A DNA stretch of 64,000 nucleotides, taken from positions 4,855 to 68,854 of the forward strand of contig JBHELG010000084.1 in the NCBI GenBank assembly GCA_046263195.1, written 5' to 3'. Below the pieces are notes generated by a model, which made no database searches, was not told the origin of the DNA, and worked only from the letters and a program-made list of their open reading frames with translations. The number at the start of each line of letters is the position of its first letter. The stretch's first letter is position 1. This DNA comes from Nitriliruptorales bacterium. Its GTDB lineage: Bacteria > Actinomycetota > Nitriliruptoria > Nitriliruptorales > JAHWKO01. Shown here piece by piece: positions 54,128-61,517 of this stretch. The position numbers and the translations under genes are program-made.

Positions 54128-54913
54128 CTAGAGGCCTTCGAGCATTGCCCTGGTTACCGGCTCGAAGAGGCTGGGTGCGAGATTGTCGTCGATCGGCAGG
54201 ACGCCGTCCGTGCGCCCCCGCGCCTGCGCGAGGATGAGGGCCGGATCGTTCACGTCCACTATGGACAGGGCAGGGATGCCCCGTTCCACGGCCGCCCCGC
54301 TCATGCCATGGTCACCGATGACGAGATCGGGCAGCTGGTCGCGGGTCGAAAGCTCGGCCAGCATCGCCTCCATGAGCCCGCTTCGGTGGGTGTGCATGAG
54401 CTCCCCACCGGAGAAGGCACAGGCGACGCCGTCCAAGTAGCGGATCCCGAGCTTGCGGTCTCCCTGCTCCATGAGGTCGCTGACGTCGTCGAGCGGGTTG
54501 AGGACCTCGCAACCGGCAGCTTGGAGCGCCCGCGAGATGGCCTGATAGTGGGGGAGGAGACCTGTCGGATGCCCGGTTGCGAGCAGGACCCGCCCGCCTT
54601 CGAGCGCAAAGGCGGCGAGGCGATCGCGGTGTAGTCCCACGGCGACCACACAAGCGTCAGGGTCGATCCATCCTGGTCCGTCCGGGTCTCGTGTCGTAGC
54701 CCGCTCGCCGCATAGGTCCGCTACCGCCGCTACAACCTCGTGCTCGGTGGCCGTCCGCCAGTCCGACAGGCCGAACGTGTAGTCGACGTTGCCTGCCACG
54801 ACCTTCGCGCAGTTGCCGAGGACATTGCGCGGCGAGGTCTGGACGTCACCTGCGAGGCGCGCGATGACGAGGTGCGCGCGCAGATCTCCCCCGTCGTCCG
54901 GCGCCAAGGGCAC
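54128..54913 (-). CDS. Actinobacterial putative phosphatase family protein
   Basis: LRAHLV.ARLAGDV, LLATGHP.GLL.HY, DLVIGDHG and DVNDPAL (family recalled as PF15698-like). Confidence 0.72.
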   Translation of the reverse strand: MPLAPDDGGDLRAHLVIARLAGDVQTSPRNVLGNCAKVVAGNVDYTFGLSDWRTATEHEVVAAVADLCGERATTRDPDGPGWIDPDACVVAVGLHRDRLAAFALEGGRVLLATGHPTGLLPHYQAISRALQAAGCEVLNPLDDVSDLMEQGDRKLGIRYLDGVACAFSGGELMHTHRSGLMEAMLAELSTRDQLPDLVIGDHGMSGAAVERGIPALSIVDVNDPALILAQARGRTDGVLPIDDNLAPSLFEPVTRAMLEGL

Positions 54914-55104
54914 GAGGCCTCCTTTTCGCAGGAAAGGTAACGAGCTGCCCGGCGGGGAGCCACCTACCGCCGACGCGCAAGGGCCGATGCGGGAAGCATG
55001 CCGCGACCGAGCCCCGAAATTCGGGCATAGCGCCCGACCACCGCCGATCTTCCTTCTGGCACGAAGAACGAAGGTTAGGCTCCCCTAAGCACGAAGGGGG
55101 CAGT

Positions 55105-56721
55105 ATGCGACGTCTGGTGCTTCTCGCGCTTGTCACGACACTGCTCGCAACAGCTTGCGCGGAAGGCGGTGGCGACCGGCAGGTAGCTAGCGAGCCCCCG
55201 AGCCGCTTGAGGGTGGCGGTCACGCGGGACTTCGGGTCGCTGAACATCTTCGCGGCGGACTTCGACGAGGAGGGTCTGACCGAGCTCGTCTACGACAAGC
55301 TGCTCGCTCCCTCGCCCTACGTCAGGGAGCCGCAGCCCTGGCTCGCGACGCGGGTGATCGCGCTCGACTCCTCGACGTGGCAGGTGACCCTCCGCGAGGA
55401 CGTGACGTGGCACGACGGGGAGCCGTTCAACGCCGACGACGTCGCTTTCACCATCGAGTACTTCAAGAAGGCGCCGACCGGCCGCTGGACGCACCATGTC
55501 AGCGAGGTCCCCGAGATCTCACAGGTCGAGGTGGTCGATCCCACCACCCTACGACTGAGGTGCGCCTATCCCTGTCCGGAGCTGGGAACGATAACGCTTG
55601 CTGACCTGCCCATCATCCCGGAACACCTCTGGCGCGGCATTGCCCAACCCCGTCAGTCCCCCGCCCCGCCTGTCGGCACGGGCCCGTATCGGCTCGCCGA
55701 CTACAGTCCGACGACGGGCTACCGGTTCGAGGCGAACGAGCAGTACTTCGCCGGCAAGCCGCGGATCCGCGAGCTGCTCATGCCGGTGATCCCCGACCCC
55801 TCCACGGCGTTCACCGCCCTGCGAACCGGTGAGATCGACGTCGCCGACCGGCCGGTGCCGCCGGAGCTGGCAGACGAGCTCCGAGGCGCACCCGGTATAG
55901 AGCTCATCTCCTCGGCACCGCTGGAGTTCCCCGAGCTGCGGCTGAACTTCCAACGCCCCGCTTTCGCCAACCACGAGGTTCGCCGGGCCCTTTCGCTCGC
56001 GGTCGACCGCGAGGCGCTGCTGCGGATAGTCGCCCTCGGACAGGGCCGGGCTGCGATGAAGGGCTACCCGCATCCCGACTCGCCCTGGACGAACCCCAAC
56101 CTCAACACGCCGTACGACCCCGGGGCAGCTCGGGCAATCCTTGACAGTGCCGGCTTTGCCGACCGCAACGGTGACGGCACCCGTGAGGCGCCCGACGGGA
56201 CGCCCCTTGCATTCTCCATACAGGTGACCGCAACAGAACCGGTGGAAGTCCGCGCCGCCGAGCTCCTAAGCGAGCAGTTCAGCACGGTCGGGGCCTCGGC
56301 CAACGTCCAGCCTGTGGATGCAGGGACGATCGACGGGCTGTTCCGAATGCGGCAGTTCGATGCCTATGTCAACGTCATCAGCGCGCACGGGGTGGCCGAC
56401 CCGACCCAGTACATCATGTCCCACCGCTCCGGCTACCTCTGGGACGCCCCAGAGGTTCCCTATCCCGCATGGGACGCACTGCACGAGCGCTGGCGGCAGG
56501 CCGCGACCCTCGACGAGCGTACACAGACCCTGTTCGAGATGCAGGAGCTCTTCAACCGGCAGCCCACAGCGATCCCCCTCTACTACCCGGAGGTCTCCTA
56601 CGCTGTGCGCCCTGCTTCCTACGACGGCTGGGTGACCTTGCCCGGCTACGGCGTCATGCACAAGTGGTCGCTGCTGCCCGAGGACGTGGGTCGGGCGGCC
56701 AATGCAGTGCAGGCGGAGTGA
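55105..56721 (+). CDS. ABC transporter substrate-binding lipoprotein (peptide/nickel, SBP family 5)
   Basis: Lipobox LATAC; VTWHDGEPFNADDVAFT, VGTGPY and VRRALSLAVDR. Confidence 0.92.
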   Translation: MRRLVLLALVTTLLATACAEGGGDRQVASEPPSRLRVAVTRDFGSLNIFAADFDEEGLTELVYDKLLAPSPYVREPQPWLATRVIALDSSTWQVTLREDVTWHDGEPFNADDVAFTIEYFKKAPTGRWTHHVSEVPEISQVEVVDPTTLRLRCAYPCPELGTITLADLPIIPEHLWRGIAQPRQSPAPPVGTGPYRLADYSPTTGYRFEANEQYFAGKPRIRELLMPVIPDPSTAFTALRTGEIDVADRPVPPELADELRGAPGIELISSAPLEFPELRLNFQRPAFANHEVRRALSLAVDREALLRIVALGQGRAAMKGYPHPDSPWTNPNLNTPYDPGAARAILDSAGFADRNGDGTREAPDGTPLAFSIQVTATEPVEVRAAELLSEQFSTVGASANVQPVDAGTIDGLFRMRQFDAYVNVISAHGVADPTQYIMSHRSGYLWDAPEVPYPAWDALHERWRQAATLDERTQTLFEMQELFNRQPTAIPLYYPEVSYAVRPASYDGWVTLPGYGVMHKWSLLPEDVGRAANAVQAE

Positions 56722-56796
56722 GGCGTGCGGAGCCGGAGTAGTGGGGCCTGGGCATTCCGCGGAGGTCGGAGTAACGGTCTTGGGCCTGTCAGGGCA

Positions 56797-57759
56797 GTGC
56801 GACGTTGGGGCCAGTACGCCCTCGTGCTGTGGGTCGCCCTGACCCTGAACTTCCTCCTCCCGCGCCTCGCGCCCGGAGACCCGATCGACTACGTGCTCGG
56901 TGAGTCCGTCGTGCCGAACGCCTCGGACCTGGAGCGCCTGCGGGCCGAGTACGGCCTCGAGGGTTCCCTGCCCGAGCAGTACGCCGACTACTGGACTCGC
57001 CTGGCCAGCGGACAGCTGGGCATATCGGTGCGCTTCGGCGAACCCGTCGCCAAAGTGCTCGCCGACCGGCTCCCCTGGACGGTCCTGCTCGTCGGCCTCG
57101 GCACGCTCGCCAGCGCGCTGCTCGCAACTCTGGCCGGGGCAGTCGCGGCCTGGAGACGTGGCGGGCGGCGGGACATCGGACTCGTGACCGGTCTGCTCGC
57201 GCTCGACGCGATGCCGGGCTTCTGGATCGGCATGCTGCTCATCTCGGTCTTCGCGGTCGAACTGGGATGGCTGCCCTCCTTCGGCGCGACGCCATTGGTG
57301 GCCTCCGGCCGCATCGACTGGGTGCTCGAGGTGGCACGGCGGCTCGTGCTGCCGGTCACGACGCTCGTGCTGGCCACTCTCGGTGGGACCTTTCTGCTCG
57401 CCCGCGGAGCGATGCTCTCCACCCTCGAGGAGGGATACGTACGCATGGCGCGGGCGAAGGGGGCCCCCGAACGCCGAGTTGTCATCCGCCACGGGCTGCG
57501 CACCGCGCTGCTGCCCATCTACACCAACGTCGCGCTGAGCTTCGGGGCTCTCCTGTCGGGCGCGGTCGTGGTCGAGACCGTGTTCGCGTACCCGGGCATA
57601 GGACGGCTGCTCTTCGAGGGCGTGCTCGCCCGCGATTACCCGCTGCTCCAAGGGGCCTTCGTCCTCGTCACGCTCGGCGTCGTGGCCGCCAACCTCGTCG
57701 CCGACCTCACCTACCCGCTGCTCGACCCGCGGGTCCGCCACGCGGGAGCCCAGTTGTGA
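56797..57759 (+). CDS. ABC transporter permease (DppB/OppB-like)
   Basis: LNFLLPRLAPGDP, EGYVRMARAKG (EAA loop) and ARDYPLLQG; start could be 56725. Confidence 0.92.
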   Translation: MRRWGQYALVLWVALTLNFLLPRLAPGDPIDYVLGESVVPNASDLERLRAEYGLEGSLPEQYADYWTRLASGQLGISVRFGEPVAKVLADRLPWTVLLVGLGTLASALLATLAGAVAAWRRGGRRDIGLVTGLLALDAMPGFWIGMLLISVFAVELGWLPSFGATPLVASGRIDWVLEVARRLVLPVTTLVLATLGGTFLLARGAMLSTLEEGYVRMARAKGAPERRVVIRHGLRTALLPIYTNVALSFGALLSGAVVVETVFAYPGIGRLLFEGVLARDYPLLQGAFVLVTLGVVAANLVADLTYPLLDPRVRHAGAQL

Positions 57760-59504
57760 GGATGTCTGGGAGTGGGCGTCGCGTGGGCTTGGTCGGGCTC
57801 GTCATCCTCCTCACCTTGGTGACGGTGGCCATCGCGGCGCCCCTGGTCGCCCCCTACCCGCCTCAGAGCCGGATCGGACCTCCGTTCTCATCCCCGGGCC
57901 TGCACAATCTGCTCGGCACGAACGACGTCGGTCAGGACCTGCTCAGCGGCCTGCTGTTCGGCGCACGCATCTCCCTGTCGGTAGGACTCGTTGCCGCCCT
58001 CACCGCCACAGTGGTCGGCACGGTCGTGGGGTTGCTGGCCGGCTACCTGGGCGGGGCGGTGGACAGCCTGCTCATGCGTCTCGTCGACGTCGTGCTGTCA
58101 CTGCCGTTCCTGCCGCTCATGATCGTCGTCGGCGCCTTCGTCGGGCCTGGGCTCGCCACGCTGATGCTCGTGATCGGCGCCATCATCTGGGCCGGGCCCT
58201 CCCGGGAACTGCGCGCCCAGATCATCTCGGCCAAGGAGCGGGAGCACGTGCAGGCGGTGCGCATCATGGGCGCATCGCACGGCTACGTGCTCGTGCGCCA
58301 TCTCCTGCCGGCCGTCGCCCCCCTCGTCGTGTCGCAGTTCGTGAGCACCGCGAAGATCGCGATCCTGCTCGAGGCCAGCCTGAGCTTTCTCGGACTCGGG
58401 GACCCCACGGCTCAGAGTTGGGGGACGATGCTCCATCACGCCTACGCTCGCAGCGCCTTTCTCAGCGACGCCTGGCTGTGGTGGGTGCTGCCGCCGGGAG
58501 CCGCGATCGCAGCGGCGGTTGTCTCTTTCGCCTTCCTCGGCTACGCCCTGGAGGAGCGGGCCCGTCCCCAGCTGGGCACGAGCCGGCCCCCGTTCCCGCC
58601 GAGGCGCTCGGCTCGAAGGACCCCGGCAGCCAAAGTCTCGGACACAGCCGCCGGGGGGCCTGGCCCGACCCCGCGGGCCGGTGGCGACGATTCAATCGTG
58701 CTCGCCTTCGAACGCCTCACGGTCGACTACGCGGGGCCGTCCGGCCAGCATCGGGCGGTCGAGGAGATCACCCTCTCGCTGGCTAGAGGTGAGGCGGTCG
58801 GGCTCGTAGGGGAGTCCGGCAGCGGCAAGTCGACCCTCGTATCGGCCGCACTCGGGCTCCTGCCTGCGGCCGCCCTCGTCACCAGTGGCCGGGTCGCCAT
58901 CGAGGGTCGCGACCTGAAGCGCCTCACCCGCGCGGAGCTCCGCCGCGTCCGGGGCGGCACGGTAGGCCTCGTCCCGCAGGAGGCCATGAATGCCCTCAAT
59001 CCCGTCATCCGTGTAGGGGAGCAGATTGCCGAATCCGTGCGTCTGCACGGCGGTGGCAGCCGTGCCGCCGCTCAGGCCCGGGCCAGGGAACTCCTCGAGG
59101 TCGTCGAGGTCGGGGCGGAAGCGGCCCGGGCCTGGCCGCACGAGCTGAGCGGAGGGATGCGCCAACGCGCGGTCATCGCCATGGCGCTTGCGGCCGAGCC
59201 GGGCATGTTGTTGGCCGACGAGCCCACTACCGGGCTCGACGTCGTCGTCCAGGCCAGCATCGTGCGCCTGATCGAGGATCTACGGCGACGCTTCGGTCTG
59301 ACCCTGCTGCTCGTGTCCCACGACCTGCCTGTGGTGCTGCGGCTGGCTGAGCGCGTCTGCATCATGGAACGGGGGCGGATCGTCGAGCAGGGTCCCATCC
59401 CCGCACTGGTGGCGTCGCCGCGTCATCCCGTCACCCGTCGCCTGCTGGACTCGGTACCTCGACTGCCTGTTCCCTCCGAGGGAACTCCCGCGAGGCGGTC
59501 GTGA
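57756..59504 (+). CDS. Fused ABC permease (DppC-like) + ATPase (DppD-like)
   Basis: LGTNDVGQD, ARISLSVG and EASLSFLGLG, then GESGSGKST, LSGGMRQR and ADEPTTGLD in one frame; GTGA overlap with the upstream permease. Confidence 0.9.
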   Translation: MRMSGSGRRVGLVGLVILLTLVTVAIAAPLVAPYPPQSRIGPPFSSPGLHNLLGTNDVGQDLLSGLLFGARISLSVGLVAALTATVVGTVVGLLAGYLGGAVDSLLMRLVDVVLSLPFLPLMIVVGAFVGPGLATLMLVIGAIIWAGPSRELRAQIISAKEREHVQAVRIMGASHGYVLVRHLLPAVAPLVVSQFVSTAKIAILLEASLSFLGLGDPTAQSWGTMLHHAYARSAFLSDAWLWWVLPPGAAIAAAVVSFAFLGYALEERARPQLGTSRPPFPPRRSARRTPAAKVSDTAAGGPGPTPRAGGDDSIVLAFERLTVDYAGPSGQHRAVEEITLSLARGEAVGLVGESGSGKSTLVSAALGLLPAAALVTSGRVAIEGRDLKRLTRAELRRVRGGTVGLVPQEAMNALNPVIRVGEQIAESVRLHGGGSRAAAQARARELLEVVEVGAEAARAWPHELSGGMRQRAVIAMALAAEPGMLLADEPTTGLDVVVQASIVRLIEDLRRRFGLTLLLVSHDLPVVLRLAERVCIMERGRIVEQGPIPALVASPRHPVTRRLLDSVPRLPVPSEGTPARRS

Positions 59505-60319
59505 GACTCGGCCAGCCGTCCCGACGTTCCCCGCCGTCCCCGCACGCCCCGCTGCTGCGAGTCGTGGAGATCCACAAGGTCTTTCGGCACGGGACGGTTA
59601 CTGCCGCCGAGGGCGTATCTTTCGCAGTGATGCCCGGTGAGGCGGTCGGGCTCGTGGGGCGAAGCGGTGCCGGGAAGACGACCATTGCCCGCATCCTCGT
59701 CGGGATGACAGCCCCGGACGCCGGTGAGGTCTTCTTCGAGGGACGCGACATCGTCAAGCTGGACCGTGGCGAGCGCCGTCGACTTGGCCGTGACATGCAC
59801 CTCATCTTTCAGGACCCCTACTCGGCCCTGCCACCCGGCATGCGGGTCGGTGACATCGTCGCTGAGCCGCTGGTCATCCAACGCACGCAGGGGGACATCA
59901 CGGGGCGCGTGCTCGAAGCGCTCACCGATGTGGCGCTCGACTCGCGCTACATCCGGCGTCTCCCGGGGGAGCTGTCCGGCGGCGAGCGTCAGCGGGTCGC
60001 GCTCGCACGAGCCATCATCACCCGTCCGCGGCTCATCGTCGCCGACGAGCCCACGGCGATGCTCGATCCATCCAGCGGCATGGATCTCCTGCGGACCATG
60101 GCCCGCCTGCGGGACGAGCACGGCGTCGCCTGGCTGTACATCACCCACGACTTGGCGCTGACGGCAGCGTATTGCACTCGCCTACTCGTGATCGACGGTG
60201 GCCGCATTGTGGAGTCCGGCGCCACCGCTGCGGTGTTGGGACGACCCGCGCACCCGCGGACACGAGAACTCGTGCACGCTGTCCGCGACCTGCACATGGC
60301 CCTTCCCTCCCCGTCATGA
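59501..60319 (+). CDS. ABC transporter ATPase (DppF-like)
   Basis: GRSGAGKTT, FQDPYSAL, LSGGERQR and ADEPTAML; GTGA overlap. Confidence 0.92.
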   Translation: MRLGQPSRRSPPSPHAPLLRVVEIHKVFRHGTVTAAEGVSFAVMPGEAVGLVGRSGAGKTTIARILVGMTAPDAGEVFFEGRDIVKLDRGERRRLGRDMHLIFQDPYSALPPGMRVGDIVAEPLVIQRTQGDITGRVLEALTDVALDSRYIRRLPGELSGGERQRVALARAIITRPRLIVADEPTAMLDPSSGMDLLRTMARLRDEHGVAWLYITHDLALTAAYCTRLLVIDGGRIVESGATAAVLGRPAHPRTRELVHAVRDLHMALPSPS

Positions 60320-60912
60320 GGAGGGTGGCGATGGTGGACATGGACCTGCGACTGCCGGGTGATCCGGTGCGGCACCCAGAGATCGAGCCGCTCGACTGCT
60401 ACTCCTTGCCGTCGTTGGACCTCGACACCTACGCCGGGCTCATCGTGCCCACGATGGTCGACCAGGAGTTCCTCCAACGCCACCGAAAGGTCCTGCGCGC
60501 CTACCTCGACCGCCGTGGTGTCATCGCTTTCAGCGGACACCTCCACCGCCCGTGGCTACCCGGCGCGGGCCTGTTCGAGCCGAAGCGGGTGCGGACCTTC
60601 CGTGACTATGAGGTACGCATAGTCGCCGACCACCCGGTCTTCGCCGGAGTGCAAGACGCCGACCTGACCTATCGCCGAGGCGTCGCCGGCTTCTTCGCCC
60701 GCGGCTACCACCGTCCGCCCCCAGGAGCGCAGGTACTCGTCGAGTTCACGAGCGGCGAGCCGGTCGTCTACGTCGACGAAGTCAGCACCGCGGGGACCCT
60801 TCTCGTTCATGCGGGCAACGACCTGGTCAACCTCGCGGGGGATGGGTCGAGCGCTTCCCGGGTAGGCGACCAGCTCGTGTCCTGGATACGGGGAGGGGGA
60901 GGTCAGGCATGA
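60316..60912 (+). CDS. Conserved uncharacterised protein (flavodoxin/GATase-like fold inferred), paralog 1
   Basis: ATGA overlap. DQEFL..L.AYL..G.....G..PWLPG, HPVFAGV..DLTYRRGVAGFFARG and VYVD..ST.GTLLVHAGNDL. Confidence 0.8.
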   Translation: MRRVAMVDMDLRLPGDPVRHPEIEPLDCYSLPSLDLDTYAGLIVPTMVDQEFLQRHRKVLRAYLDRRGVIAFSGHLHRPWLPGAGLFEPKRVRTFRDYEVRIVADHPVFAGVQDADLTYRRGVAGFFARGYHRPPPGAQVLVEFTSGEPVVYVDEVSTAGTLLVHAGNDLVNLAGDGSSASRVGDQLVSWIRGGGGQA

Positions 60913-61517
60913 CCGTTGCCGCGCTGTATGGGGGCTCCGCACCACATCATCAGGCGCTGCACGGCGAGCCGGCCGGACCCTGGATCGACGAGGTCATCTA
61001 CCTGCCGCATGCCACCAACGCGGATCTGAGCCACCACCAGTTCCTGCTCGTTCCCGAGCGACTGCACCGTGGACTGCTCCACCTCGCGGCTCCGATTGTC
61101 ATGGACTTCCTCGGAAGCGGTGGGACGGTCGTCGCTTTCGGGGGCCAGCCCACCGGCTGGTTGCCGGGCCTGCACTGGGAGCATCGGCCGACGAACTTCT
61201 GGTGGTGGCGAGAGCCGGAAGGACGGAGTGGACTCGTCGCCCGCGACCCCGACCACCCCTTCTTCCGTCATGTCCCCTTACGAGACGCTACCTGGCACTT
61301 CCACGGCGTCTTCCATCCGTCCCCGGGGGCCGAGACGATCCTCGCGAGCGACGTCGGCGGCGCAGTGCTCTACATCGACGAGGCTTCCACCGGCGGGACC
61401 CTCATCGTGACGTCGCTCGATCCCCTCTACCACGTCGGGTCCTACTTCATGCCCGCGGCAGGGCGCTTCCTGGCAGGCTTTCTGCCGTGGCTGTTGGGAC
61501 CCCGCCCCGGGCCTTGA
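60909..61517 (+). CDS. Conserved uncharacterised protein (same fold), paralog 2
   Basis: ATGA overlap. FL..GGTVV.FG..WLPG, NFWWW, HPFF..TWHFHG and LYID..ST.GTLIVTSLDP.YH. Confidence 0.8.
   Translation: MTVAALYGGSAPHHQALHGEPAGPWIDEVIYLPHATNADLSHHQFLLVPERLHRGLLHLAAPIVMDFLGSGGTVVAFGGQPTGWLPGLHWEHRPTNFWWWREPEGRSGLVARDPDHPFFRHVPLRDATWHFHGVFHPSPGAETILASDVGGAVLYIDEASTGGTLIVTSLDPLYHVGSYFMPAAGRFLAGFLPWLLGPRPGP

What the first reader, a model, noticed from the sequence alone, without database searches (positions are those of the whole stretch)
60316..61517. Two paralogous uncharacterised cytoplasmic proteins translationally coupled to an ABC importer
Seen: both genes are joined by ATGA overlaps to the ABC ATPase and to each other. 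They share a pattern (FL..GG.V..FG/SG..PWLPG, HP.F, Y.D..ST.GTL.V), so they are ancient paralogs. Neither has a signal peptide. Conserved-looking polar and aromatic clusters differ (RRGVAGFFARG and HAGND versus NFWWW, WHFHG and DP.YH). From recall only, similar pairs carry unhelpful database names and sit beside metal or cofactor ABC systems. Inference: a heterodimeric enzyme or binding module that processes the imported ligand (metallophore, cofactor or modified peptide). This is a candidate undescribed uptake-and-release system.
Basis: partly seen in the sequence, partly recalled or inferred. Interest (0 to 1): 0.72.

Follow-up and report, generated by a model that had tools for sequence, protein, structure and literature searches.

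The report
Iron-regulated two-protein importer accessory module
Two related, unnamed cytoplasmic proteins always occur as a pair or fused into one, sit beside metal-chelate ABC importers in at least five phyla and carry iron-repressor sites at their promoters, so they are probably an undescribed step in handling imported iron chelates.

Summary
Genes A (60331-60912; alternative start 60316) and B (60909-61517) are true paralogs. They end a six-gene Nik/Opp-type ABC importer operon.

- **Fold:** both model confidently as class I glutamine-amidotransferase-like (ThuA-like) domains. Neither has the catalytic cysteine, and neither matches any Pfam, NCBIfam or PDB sequence family.
- **Pairing:** A lies directly upstream of B in 79 of 80 genomic loci. 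The two are fused A-B in 18 of those loci and in Helicobacter and Campylobacter. A soil subfamily is fused in the reverse order, B-A. This is strong Rosetta-stone evidence for a heterodimer.
- **Neighbours:** of 60 loci with long flanks, 41 adjoin a peptide/nickel-type importer, 12 adjoin a FecCD-type importer and 7 adjoin neither.
- **Regulation:** Fur boxes mark the promoters in 41 of 45 low-GC loci. IdeR/DtxR boxes do so in Actinomycetota and haloarchaea. The only such site in this 64-kb window lies 16 nt before the binding-protein gene.

My reading is an iron-starvation-induced cytoplasmic heterodimer that acts on the imported metal chelate, probably releasing or accepting the metal at an invariant His/Asp/His, Trp-lined site in B. 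The chemistry and the ligand are inferred, not shown. I found no description of the family.

The parts
55071..55089 (.). IdeR/DtxR-type operator-like site GAAGGTTAGGCTCCCCTAA, 16 nt upstream of the binding-protein start codon
   Evidence: It matches TWAGGTWAGSCTWACCTWA at 16 of 19 positions and is the only site of at least 15/19 in the 64-kb window. Equivalent sites occupy the same position in related actinobacterial loci. The genome encodes DtxR-family regulators.
55105..56721 (+). Lipoprotein substrate-binding protein, family 5 (Nik/Opp/Dpp type)
   Evidence: Pfam SBP_bac_5, E = 1.4e-76. It scores below the cut-offs of every NCBIfam equivalog (NikA, Opp4A, CntA). Nearest solved relatives are 4oet, NikA and HbpA.
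56725..57759 (+). ABC permease (NikB/OppB-like)
   Evidence: BPD_transp_1. The best NCBIfam model is the Opp2B nickel permease, 254.8 bits against a cut-off of 350.
57756..59504 (+). Fused permease (NikC/OppC-like) plus ABC ATPase (NikD-like). The GTG at 57756 overlaps the preceding stop codon (GTGA); an alternative ATG lies at 57762.
   Evidence: OppC_N, BPD_transp_1 and ABC_tran occur in one ORF. Sequence read.
59501..60319 (+). Second ABC ATPase (NikE-like, no C-terminal oligo_HPY extension)
   Evidence: ABC_tran. NikE model scores 209.7 bits, below its cut-off.
60331..60912 (+). Gene A: 193-aa cytoplasmic class I GATase-like protein (alternative start 60316 gives 198 aa)
   Evidence: AF2 pLDDT 89.4. 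Foldseek top hits are 2gk3 and 3soz. Family of at least 280 clusters. AGGAGG precedes the ATG at 60331.
60909..61517 (+). Gene B: 202-aa cytoplasmic class I GATase-like protein, His- and Trp-rich, sharing an ATGA overlap with A
   Evidence: AF2 pLDDT 92.8. Foldseek top hits are 2gk3, 4jqs, 3rht and PabA-type GATases. Family of at least 535 clusters. Universal invariants are W100, W129, H130, D171, P172 and H175.

Best explanation
A and B form an obligate cytoplasmic heterodimer of two diverged class I glutamine-amidotransferase-like (ThuA-like fold) domains that have lost the Cys-His-Glu triad. The pair belongs to the iron-starvation regulon: IdeR/DtxR in Actinomycetota and haloarchaea, Fur in Bacillota. 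It works downstream of a metal-chelate ABC importer. That importer is a Nik/Opp-type system here and a specific FecCD/Peripla_BP_2-type system in other lineages. I propose that the heterodimer takes the imported Fe-chelate from the transporter's cytoplasmic side and frees or accepts the metal without oxygen. The proposed site is in subunit B, at the position of the old amidotransferase active site. It is built from the universally invariant His130, Asp171 and His175 (a 2-His-1-carboxylate-like set) and lined by invariant tryptophans. Subunit A would contribute an arginine/glycine-rich loop (RRGVAGFFARG). Shown here: paralogy, fold, loss of the triad, obligate pairing and fusion, linkage to importers, and operator sites. 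Inferred: heterodimer contact, iron as the physiological metal, and the release or acceptor chemistry.
For: - **Paralogy and fold:**
- **No cysteine at the nucleophile elbow:** A reads S-G-H and B reads F-G-x-Q. Neither family has an invariant Cys.
- **Pairing:** A lies directly upstream of B in 78 of 80 loci by the tblastn screen. One of the two exceptions (L034) has A present but frameshifted, making 79 of 80. The other (L049) lies 30 nt from a contig end.
- **Fusion:** 18 of the 80 loci carry a single A-B ORF. A-B fusions also occur in Helicobacter and Campylobacter. Reversed B-A fusions occur in a soil subfamily.
- **Importer linkage:** 41 Nik/Opp-type, 12 FecCD-type and 7 with neither among 60 long-flank loci. 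Gene order varies between lineages. In Campylobacterota the locus includes TonB-dependent receptors. Of the B-A fusion loci, 23 of 24 lie in Peripla_BP_2-FecCD-ATPase operons.
- **One partner subfamily:** the FecCD-type binding proteins from four lineages are 32-37% identical (E 1e-59 to 1e-92), against E of 1e-12 or weaker for an unrelated Peripla_BP_2 protein.
- **Fur boxes:** 109 sites against 12.2 expected. At least one lies at a module promoter in 41 of 45 low-GC loci, and many match 14 of 14 positions.
- **IdeR boxes:** 25 sites against 2.0 expected, nearly all directly before the first gene of the operon or before the fused gene. Two such boxes precede the Haladaptatus operon.
- **This window:** it holds one site only, at 55071-55089.
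- **Oxygen independence:** the pair occurs in genera commonly described as aerobic (Paenibacillus, Brevibacillus) and as anaerobic (Romboutsia, Clostridium).
- **Candidate site:** invariant H130, D171 and H175 persist across all subfamilies.
Against: - No biochemical or expression data exist for any member.
- About 12% of loci have no adjacent importer.
- Several high-GC loci, including Rubrobacter, show no IdeR-like site.
- Across the window's own genome, IdeR-like sites at this threshold are no more frequent than in a shuffle: 8 against 7. The call for this window therefore rests on position and on conservation in relatives.
- The transporters resemble nickel systems (NikA-E, CeuE) more than classical siderophore systems.
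- The Helicobacter promoter shows a different palindrome, not a Fur box.
Confidence: 0.55

Rival explanations
1. The pair handles heme or another iron tetrapyrrole. Both partner importer types have heme-transporting members, and A/B would bind heme and extract its iron without oxygen (a dechelatase or chaperone).
For: - Solved relatives of the binding protein include the heme-binding protein HbpA.
- The module is regulated by Fur and IdeR.
- B is rich in His (16) and Trp (8).
- In Clostridia the pair sits beside NifH/D/K-like genes. Characterised relatives of those genes include tetrapyrrole reductases (review PMC13474568).
- The pair occurs in anaerobes that cannot use oxygen-dependent heme oxygenases (inference).
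Against: - No heme oxygenase, PhuS/ChuS-type or NEAT gene appears among the Pfam-annotated or recurrent neighbours.
- The closest solved relatives of the FecCD-type partner binding protein are 4ovk, MolA and CeuE, which bind small ligands, not heme.
- The nitrogenase-like neighbours occur in only 3 of 80 loci.
Confidence: 0.17
2. The physiological cargo is a nickel, cobalt or other metal chelate, not iron. The pair would be a metallochaperone or release factor for Ni-(His)2-type or opine-type metallophore complexes.
For: - The permeases, ATPases and binding protein score best against Nik/Opp2/Cnt models.
- The FecCD-type partner binding protein is related to H. pylori CeuE, deposited as a nickel-binding protein.
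- The frequent third partner is FmdE-like. An earlier scan note linked FmdE-importer operons to nickel.
- The Helicobacter jaachi promoter has a non-Fur palindrome.
Against: - The operators in Bacillota match the Bacillus Fur 7-1-7 consensus TGATAATnATTATCA, often at 14 of 14 positions. They do not match Zur or PerR variants (consensus from established B. subtilis work).
- The actinobacterial sites match the IdeR iron box.
- All Nik equivalog cut-offs are missed.
Confidence: 0.13
3. The pair is not catalytic. It would be a cytoplasmic regulator or docking adaptor of the importer's ATPase domains, for example gating uptake according to cytoplasmic metal status.
For: - A is tightly coupled to the ATPase genes.
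- The catalytic triad is lost.
- GATase1-like domains serve as oligomerisation or binding modules elsewhere, as in the GH42 trimerisation domain and the IFT52 N-terminal domain among the Foldseek hits.
Against: - The same pair serves two unrelated ABC architectures, type I Nik/Opp and type II FecCD.
- It also occurs with no importer nearby.
- A polar His/Asp/His plus Trp set, invariant across all subfamilies, looks like a ligand or metal site more than a protein-protein surface.
Confidence: 0.1
4. The pair is an amidohydrolase or peptidase that breaks down an imported peptide or gamma-glutamyl compound for nutrition (nitrogen or sulfur).
For: - The fold matches that of gamma-glutamyl hydrolases such as PuuD, SpuA and GGP1.
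- The importer here is of the peptide-type family.
- One Clostridium locus lies among sulfur-metabolism genes.
Against: - There is no nucleophile cysteine.
- Iron-repressor operators, not nitrogen or sulfur control elements, mark the promoters. No T-box or S-box riboswitch was found in 13 loci.
- Linkage to FecCD importers and TonB-dependent receptors does not fit peptide nutrition.
Confidence: 0.05

Closest known systems
ThuA-like / GATase1-like proteins of unknown function (PDB 2gk3 STM3548, 3soz STM1381, 4jqs, 3rht; Pfam PF06283, PF07090, DUF4159)
   Same: Same fold: a class I glutamine-amidotransferase-like flavodoxin-type sheet. These are the best Foldseek hits for both A and B (TM 0.55-0.59 normalised to the query, probability 1.00). 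They also lack the catalytic cysteine.
   Different: Sequence identity is only 10-14%. Neither A nor B matches any Pfam model at E <= 10. One B-A fusion touches DUF4159 below its cut-off. The obligate A+B pairing or fusion, the iron operators and the importer linkage are not known features of those families (from my own knowledge).
Class I glutamine amidotransferases and gamma-glutamyl hydrolases (PabA/TrpG, GuaA and CTP synthase domains, PuuD, SpuA)
   Same: Same core fold. B's conserved motif LDPxxHxG lies after the last core strand, where these enzymes carry the His and Glu of the triad (the position is inferred from secondary-structure order).
   Different: The Cys-His-Glu triad is absent. 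The elbow reads S-G-H in A and F-G-x-Q in B. No synthase partner domain is present.
Cytoplasmic iron-release or utilisation proteins encoded with iron-chelate importers (siderophore-interacting reductases ViuB/YqjH, FhuF, esterases Fes/BesA, heme proteins PhuS/ChuS, IsdG, HmuO)
   Same: Same genomic and regulatory logic: a soluble cytoplasmic protein co-transcribed with a metal-chelate ABC importer under Fur or IdeR control. This is the role I propose for A/B.
   Different: The folds and sequence families are unrelated. A/B has no FAD, Fe-S or serine-hydrolase motif and no invariant cysteine. It is heterodimeric or fused, and it occurs in both aerobes and strict anaerobes.
NikABCDE / Opp2 / CntABCDF (Opp1) nickel and opine-metallophore importers
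   Same: The window's transporter has the same five-domain architecture and scores best against these models.
   Different: It falls below every equivalog cut-off. One permease is fused to an ATPase. The promoter carries an IdeR-type site, not a NikR- or Zur-type site. As far as I know those systems have no A/B-like genes; this was not tested here.
FmdE family (PF02663), the frequent third partner gene
   Same: A roughly 175-aa protein next to A/B in 30 of 80 loci gives full-length but sub-threshold FmdE matches in 8 of 14 members. Earlier scan notes link FmdE proteins to metal importers.
   Different: It lacks the cysteine of the FmdE HGHxCPG motif (the motif is from memory). It is absent from this window and its genome.

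Membership tests
Class I glutamine amidotransferase (catalytic) | Flavodoxin-like GATase fold | tested here: met
   AF2 models have pLDDT 89.4 (A) and 92.8 (B). Foldseek hits to PabA, GuaA, CTP synthase and PuuD domains have probability about 1.0.
Class I glutamine amidotransferase (catalytic) | Cys-His-Glu triad with Cys at the nucleophile elbow after the fourth strand | tested here: not met
   The elbow is S-G-H/Q/M in A and F-G-x-Q in B. Neither 40-sequence alignment has an invariant Cys.
ThuA-like / GATase1_like / DUF4159 (Pfam) | Match to the family HMM above the gathering score | tested here: not met
   A and B match no Pfam or NCBIfam family at E <= 10. One B-A fusion scores 22.7 bits against DUF4159, below its cut-off of 25.9.
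ThuA-like / GATase1_like / DUF4159 (Pfam) | Structural similarity to solved members | tested here: met
   Hits to 2gk3, 3soz, 4jqs and 3rht have TM 0.55-0.59 normalised to the query.
PhoH (name given to family A in some records) | PhoH P-loop ATPase domain | tested here: not met
   No Pfam or NCBIfam match of any kind, and the fold is GATase-like. The 'phosphate starvation-inducible protein PhoH' label is a misannotation.
Iron (IdeR/DtxR or Fur) regulon | Operator matching the regulator's consensus, placed at the promoter and conserved in orthologous loci | tested here: met
   The window has a 16/19 IdeR-type site 16 nt before the first gene. IdeR-type sites number 25 against 2.0 expected, and Fur-type sites 109 against 12.2 expected. 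Both are concentrated at module promoters.
Iron (IdeR/DtxR or Fur) regulon | Regulator binding and iron-dependent transcription | not testable with these tools
   The window comes from an uncultured genome. No expression study of a carrier organism turned up.
NikABCDE nickel importer (equivalogs) | Scores above the NCBIfam equivalog cut-offs | tested here: not met
   NikA scores 137 bits (cut-off 393), Opp2B 255 (350), NikD 218 (319) and NikE 210 (333).
Obligate heterodimer (Rosetta-stone criterion) | Partner genes always co-occur and are found fused in other genomes | tested here: met
   A and B are adjacent in 79 of 80 loci. There are 18 A-B fusions, further A-B fusions in Campylobacterota, and B-A fusions in a soil subfamily.
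Obligate heterodimer (Rosetta-stone criterion) | Physical A-B interface | not tested

The most novel reading that the evidence does not exclude
A/B would be the founding member of a new class of oxygen-independent metal-release enzymes or acceptors. A heterodimer built on a repurposed amidotransferase scaffold would strip iron (or another metal) from an imported small chelate at a 2-His-1-Asp site. It would have spread by horizontal transfer as a plug-in module onto two unrelated ABC importer architectures in bacteria and archaea.
Probability: 0.35. Interest if true: 0.82.

Novelty: new variant of a known kind. Interest (0 to 1): 0.72.

Why it matters
How cells get the metal out of an imported chelate is known for only a few siderophore and heme systems. 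To my knowledge it remains open for opine metallophores, Ni-(His)2-type complexes, most Gram-positive xenosiderophores and archaea.

This pair is a compact, rare family: 467 representatives among 1.84 billion protein clusters. Even so, it occurs in Actinomycetota, Bacillota, Chloroflexota, Campylobacterota, haloarchaea and soil metagenomes (the reversed-fusion subfamily). It is controlled by two unrelated iron repressors and attached to two unrelated importer types. It has no Pfam or NCBIfam model, and some records mislabel it as PhoH.

That gives a concrete, testable candidate for a missing cytoplasmic step of metal-chelate utilisation. It also gives an immediate annotation fix. Cultured carriers such as Brevibacillus, Paenibacillus, Rhodococcus, Romboutsia and enterohepatic Helicobacter are candidates for genetic tests.

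Tried and rejected
- **Sequence family searches:** Pfam and NCBIfam gave nothing for A or B at E <= 10. Profile searches of PDB sequences gave nothing for B and only chance-level DJ-1 fragments for A.
- **Riboswitches and leader RNAs:** Rfam found none in the operon region of the window or in 13 related loci. This gave no support for cobalamin, SAM or T-box control. The weak CRISPR-DR8 hit inside gene B (E = 0.2) is chance.
- **Sulfur hypothesis:** it arose from a Clostridium locus flanked by TauE, rhodanese, DsrE and TusA genes, and from LysR regulators in Paenibacillus. I dropped it because those neighbours are not conserved and the promoters carry Fur boxes.
- **Nitrogenase-like neighbours in Clostridia**: they occur in only 3 of 80 loci and are treated as a side observation. 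The review PMC13474568 gave no function for such clusters.
- **Literature:** searches for the family, and for iron regulons of carrier taxa and haloarchaea, found no description. Leyn & Rodionov 2015 on archaeal DtxR regulons is not held.
- **Sigma-70 promoter and terminator scan of the operon:** uninformative in this high-GC genome.
- **Genome-wide IdeR scan of the window's own genome:** no overall enrichment, 8 sites against 7 in a shuffle. It therefore cannot validate the site by count alone.
- **Model coordinates:** they were not available in the Python box, so residue distances could not be measured.
Full report
**What is in the window**

Positions 55105-61517 (+) hold six tightly packed genes:
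- a family-5 substrate-binding lipoprotein (55105-56721);
- a NikB/OppB-like permease (56725-57759);
- a permease fused to an ABC ATPase (57756-59504);
- a second ATPase (59501-60319);
- gene A and gene B.

The transporter scores best against nickel/opine/oligopeptide (Nik, Opp2, Cnt) models but misses every equivalog cut-off. Its nearest solved binding proteins are 4oet, NikA and HbpA.

Gene B (60909-61517, 202 aa) overlaps A by ATGA. Gene A most likely starts at the ATG at 60331, which follows AGGAGG and is the start of the 193-aa protein on record. The ATGA-overlapping ATG at 60316 lacks a ribosome-binding site. Neither protein has a signal peptide or membrane segment.

- A and B are paralogs. 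BLASTP gives 28% identity, E = 9e-13. Profile-profile comparison of 40-member alignments gives 99.5% probability, E = 3.6e-23.
In A they are DQE, G-x-x-x-x-x-W-LPG, RGVAGFFARG and H-x-G-N-D. In B they are TNFWWW, TWHxHG and LDPxxHxGSYFMPA..RFL..FLPW.

**Fold and family**

- No Pfam or NCBIfam model matches either protein at E <= 10. No PDB sequence matches meaningfully.
- AlphaFold2 models are confident: pLDDT 89.4 for A and 92.8 for B.
- Foldseek places both in the class I glutamine-amidotransferase-like fold. The best matches are the uncharacterised Salmonella proteins STM3548 (2gk3) and STM1381 (3soz), ThuA-like proteins (4jqs, 3rht), GH42 trimerisation domains, and true amidotransferase domains such as PabA and PuuD. 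TM scores are 0.5-0.6.
- The catalytic cysteine is absent. The elbow reads S-G-H in A and F-G-x-Q in B, and neither family has an invariant Cys.
- In an alignment of B domains from every subfamily found, the universal invariants are G9, G71, W100, W129, H130, G133, G163, L170, D171, P172, H175 and G177.
- The LDPxxHxG segment follows the last core strand, where amidotransferases carry their His and Glu. This placement is inferred from the order of secondary-structure elements.
- Some records label family A 'PhoH'. Nothing supports that name.

**The two proteins belong together**

- A scan of one genome for each of 185,579 species found 399 stretches encoding B relatives. I analysed 80 loci.
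- A lies directly upstream of B in 78 of the 80 by the tblastn screen. One exception has A present but frameshifted. The other lies at a contig end.
- In 18 loci A and B form one 390-550-aa ORF (most 410-450 aa) with a short variable linker. These include Pseudonocardiaceae MAGs, Lolliginicoccus and Rhodococcus.
- A profile of these fusions, searched against 1.84 billion cluster representatives, found only 467 proteins at E <= 1e-3. Among them are A-B fusions from enterohepatic Helicobacter and Campylobacter, and a subfamily fused in the opposite order, B-A.
- Fusion in both orders in different lineages is classical Rosetta-stone evidence for physical interaction. The window's genome has a single pair.

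**Neighbours**

- Of 60 loci with at least 6 kb on both sides, 41 adjoin a family-5/Nik-Opp-type importer, 12 adjoin a Peripla_BP_2/FecCD-type importer and 7 adjoin neither.
- Gene order varies:
  - importer then A-B, as in the window, Brevibacillus, Paenibacillus and Haladaptatus;
  - binding protein, A-B, then permeases, as in Rubrobacter;
  - A-B then importer, as in many Paenibacillus;
  - A-B divergent from the FecCD-type importer, as in Bacillaceae.
- In Campylobacter the fusion is the fourth gene of a Peripla_BP_2-FecCD-ATPase operon next to a TonB-dependent receptor. In Helicobacter jaachi it sits among three such receptors.
- In the B-A subfamily, 23 of 24 metagenomic loci carry the same FecCD-type operon contiguous with the fusion.
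- The FecCD-type partner binding proteins of Bacilli, Clostridia, Campylobacter and Helicobacter form one group: 32-37% identity, E 1e-59 to 1e-92. An unrelated Peripla_BP_2 protein scores E of 1e-12 or weaker. Their nearest solved relatives are 4ovk, MolA and CeuE, a nickel-binding protein.
- Stand-alone A-B operons also exist, sometimes with the third gene described below.

**Regulation**

- Upstream of the pair in Bacillaceae I saw near-perfect Bacillus Fur boxes. Across the 45 low-GC loci, sites matching TGATAATnATTATCA at 12 or more of 14 positions number 109, against 12.2 expected from shuffles.
- Of those sites, 67 fall in the 11% of sequence lying within -350 to +40 of a module gene start. 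At least one such site occurs in 41 of 45 loci, and many match 14 of 14.
- In high-GC loci, IdeR-type sites matching TWAGGTWAGSCTWACCTWA at 15 or more of 19 positions number 25, against 2.0 expected. Nearly all lie just before the first gene of the operon, or before the fused gene where no importer is present.
- The window has exactly one such site, GAAGGTTAGGCTCCCCTAA at 55071-55089, 16 nt before the binding-protein start.
- Two DtxR-type boxes precede the Haladaptatus operon, and one precedes the Halopenitus operon.
- The window's genome encodes two DtxR-family regulators. Its other best sites flank an SBP_bac_6/8-family binding-protein gene (by eye Fe3+-type) and a lipoprotein gene that by eye looks cupredoxin-like but has no Pfam match.
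- Caveats: genome-wide counts in that genome are not above a shuffle, 8 against 7. Some actinobacterial loci lack a site. The Helicobacter promoter shows a different palindrome.

**Other partners**

- A roughly 175-aa protein accompanies the pair in 30 of 80 loci across Bacillota and Actinomycetota. It is a divergent FmdE-like protein: 8 of 14 members hit PF02663 over its full length, with a best E-value of 4.5e-5 and scores below the cut-off in the member tabulated. It is absent from this genome.

**Most likely mechanism**

- **Shown:** a pair or fusion of triad-less amidotransferase-fold domains. It is under iron-repressor operators in three lineages. It is attached to two unrelated classes of metal-chelate importer. 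It occurs in genera commonly described as aerobic and as anaerobic.
- **Inferred:** the heterodimer acts in the cytoplasm on the imported chelate, without oxygen. It would release or accept the metal at a site formed by H130, D171 and H175 of B, with the tryptophans stacking on the ligand and A's arginine-rich loop binding carboxylates.
- I give about 0.85 to 'iron-regulated heterodimeric accessory of metal-chelate import' and about 0.35 to the specific release or acceptor chemistry.

**Rival readings**

- Heme-specific handling.
- A nickel or cobalt cargo rather than iron. The transporters look Nik- and CeuE-like, but the operators are iron-type.
- A non-catalytic adaptor of the ATPases. This is hard to reconcile with two importer architectures and with stand-alone pairs.
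- A nutritional amidase. The pair has no nucleophile and the wrong regulation for this.

**Comparison with the known**

- By fold, the pair belongs to the GATase1-like/ThuA-like superfamily. It fails sequence membership of every curated family and fails the catalytic-triad test.
- By role, it resembles the cytoplasmic utilisation proteins of siderophore and heme systems (ViuB/YqjH, FhuF, Fes/BesA, PhuS/ChuS, IsdG). It shares no fold or cofactor motif with them.
- I found no paper describing it.
- I classify it as a new variant of a known kind: a new protein family filling the 'cytoplasmic partner of a metal-chelate importer' niche.

**Limits**

- No experiment or expression data exist for any member.
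- No multimer model could be made.
- The ligand is unknown.
- The regulatory sites are consensus matches, supported by enrichment, position and conservation across lineages only.

Noticed in passing
L025:2493-3017, L048:6136-6660, L086:4033-5113 and 27 other loci: A third conserved partner of about 175 aa sits next to A/B in 30 of 80 loci, in both Bacillota and Actinomycetota (two tandem copies in Rhodococcus). It is a divergent FmdE-like protein with invariant H24, G65-P66-G67, R69-D70 and E73. It lacks the FmdE cysteine and scores below the Pfam cut-off.
   Followed up: partly
L069:1063-7401 (Romboutsia lituseburensis); also L059, L084: In Clostridia the pair lies beside a divergent operon encoding NifH-like, NifD-like and NifK-like proteins followed by Peripla_BP_2, FecCD and an ATPase. 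A Crp/Fnr regulator lies between them, and Fur-like boxes lie in the intergenic regions. This is an uncharacterised nitrogenase-like system tied to a metal-chelate importer.
   Followed up: partly
L056, L059, L069, L084, L089: the roughly 80 nt before the start codon of gene A: Clostridial loci share a conserved hairpin (GTTACTGTAAAA ... TTTTCAGTAAC). It lies between a Shine-Dalgarno-like GGAGAT and the ATG of gene A. It could be a translational control element or a structure that bridges the ribosome-binding site to the start codon. It matches no Rfam family.
   Followed up: no
L001:8606-12025, L008:8606-12569, L025 (+575 to +4000 from B): In Brevibacillus and Paenibacillus the Fur-box operon continues past A/B. 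It adds an FtsE-like ATPase, an FtsX-like permease with an FtsX_ECD domain, and two secreted proteins with no Pfam match, one of them coiled-coil. This would be an iron-regulated FtsEX paralog of unknown role.
   Followed up: no
own genome, contig C124:18104-20074: Two IdeR-like boxes (17/19 and 16/19) flank a 203-aa lipoprotein gene that by eye looks cupredoxin-like but has no Pfam match. They precede an SBP_bac_6/8-family binding-protein gene that by eye resembles Fe3+-type binding proteins. These are probably other members of this organism's iron regulon.
   Followed up: partly
window 57756-59504; L005:9615-12080; L003:6409-8004: Domain fusions in the partner importer differ by lineage: permease-ATPase here and in Bacillota, permease-ATPase-ATPase (821 aa) in Rubrobacter, and ATPase-ATPase in Haladaptatus. 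A Dehalococcoidia operon (L007) has no ATPase gene at all.
   Followed up: no
L093:8905-8945 (Helicobacter jaachi): The promoter of the fused A-B gene carries the palindrome TATTGCA-N13-TGCAATA instead of a Fur-like box. This may mean a different metal regulator controls the module in Helicobacter.
   Followed up: no
L105, L107, L109, L100/L130: upstream of the Peripla_BP_2 gene: Several loci of the B-A fusion subfamily carry the palindrome TGCGAAT-N-ATTCGCA, or close variants, at the promoter. It resembles Fur-family boxes of some Proteobacteria. Other loci of the subfamily share only a conserved TTGACT-N17-CATGAWAT promoter.
   Followed up: no
L034:8690-9318 (Paenibacillus sp. TAB 01): Gene A is split by a frameshift into two overlapping ORFs while B is intact. 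This is either a sequencing error or a recent pseudogene.
   Followed up: partly
window 54128-54913 (-): The gene divergent from the operon encodes a PF15698 'Phosphatase' family protein (E = 1.1e-61). It shares the 190-nt intergenic region that holds the IdeR-like site, so it may be co-regulated.
   Followed up: no
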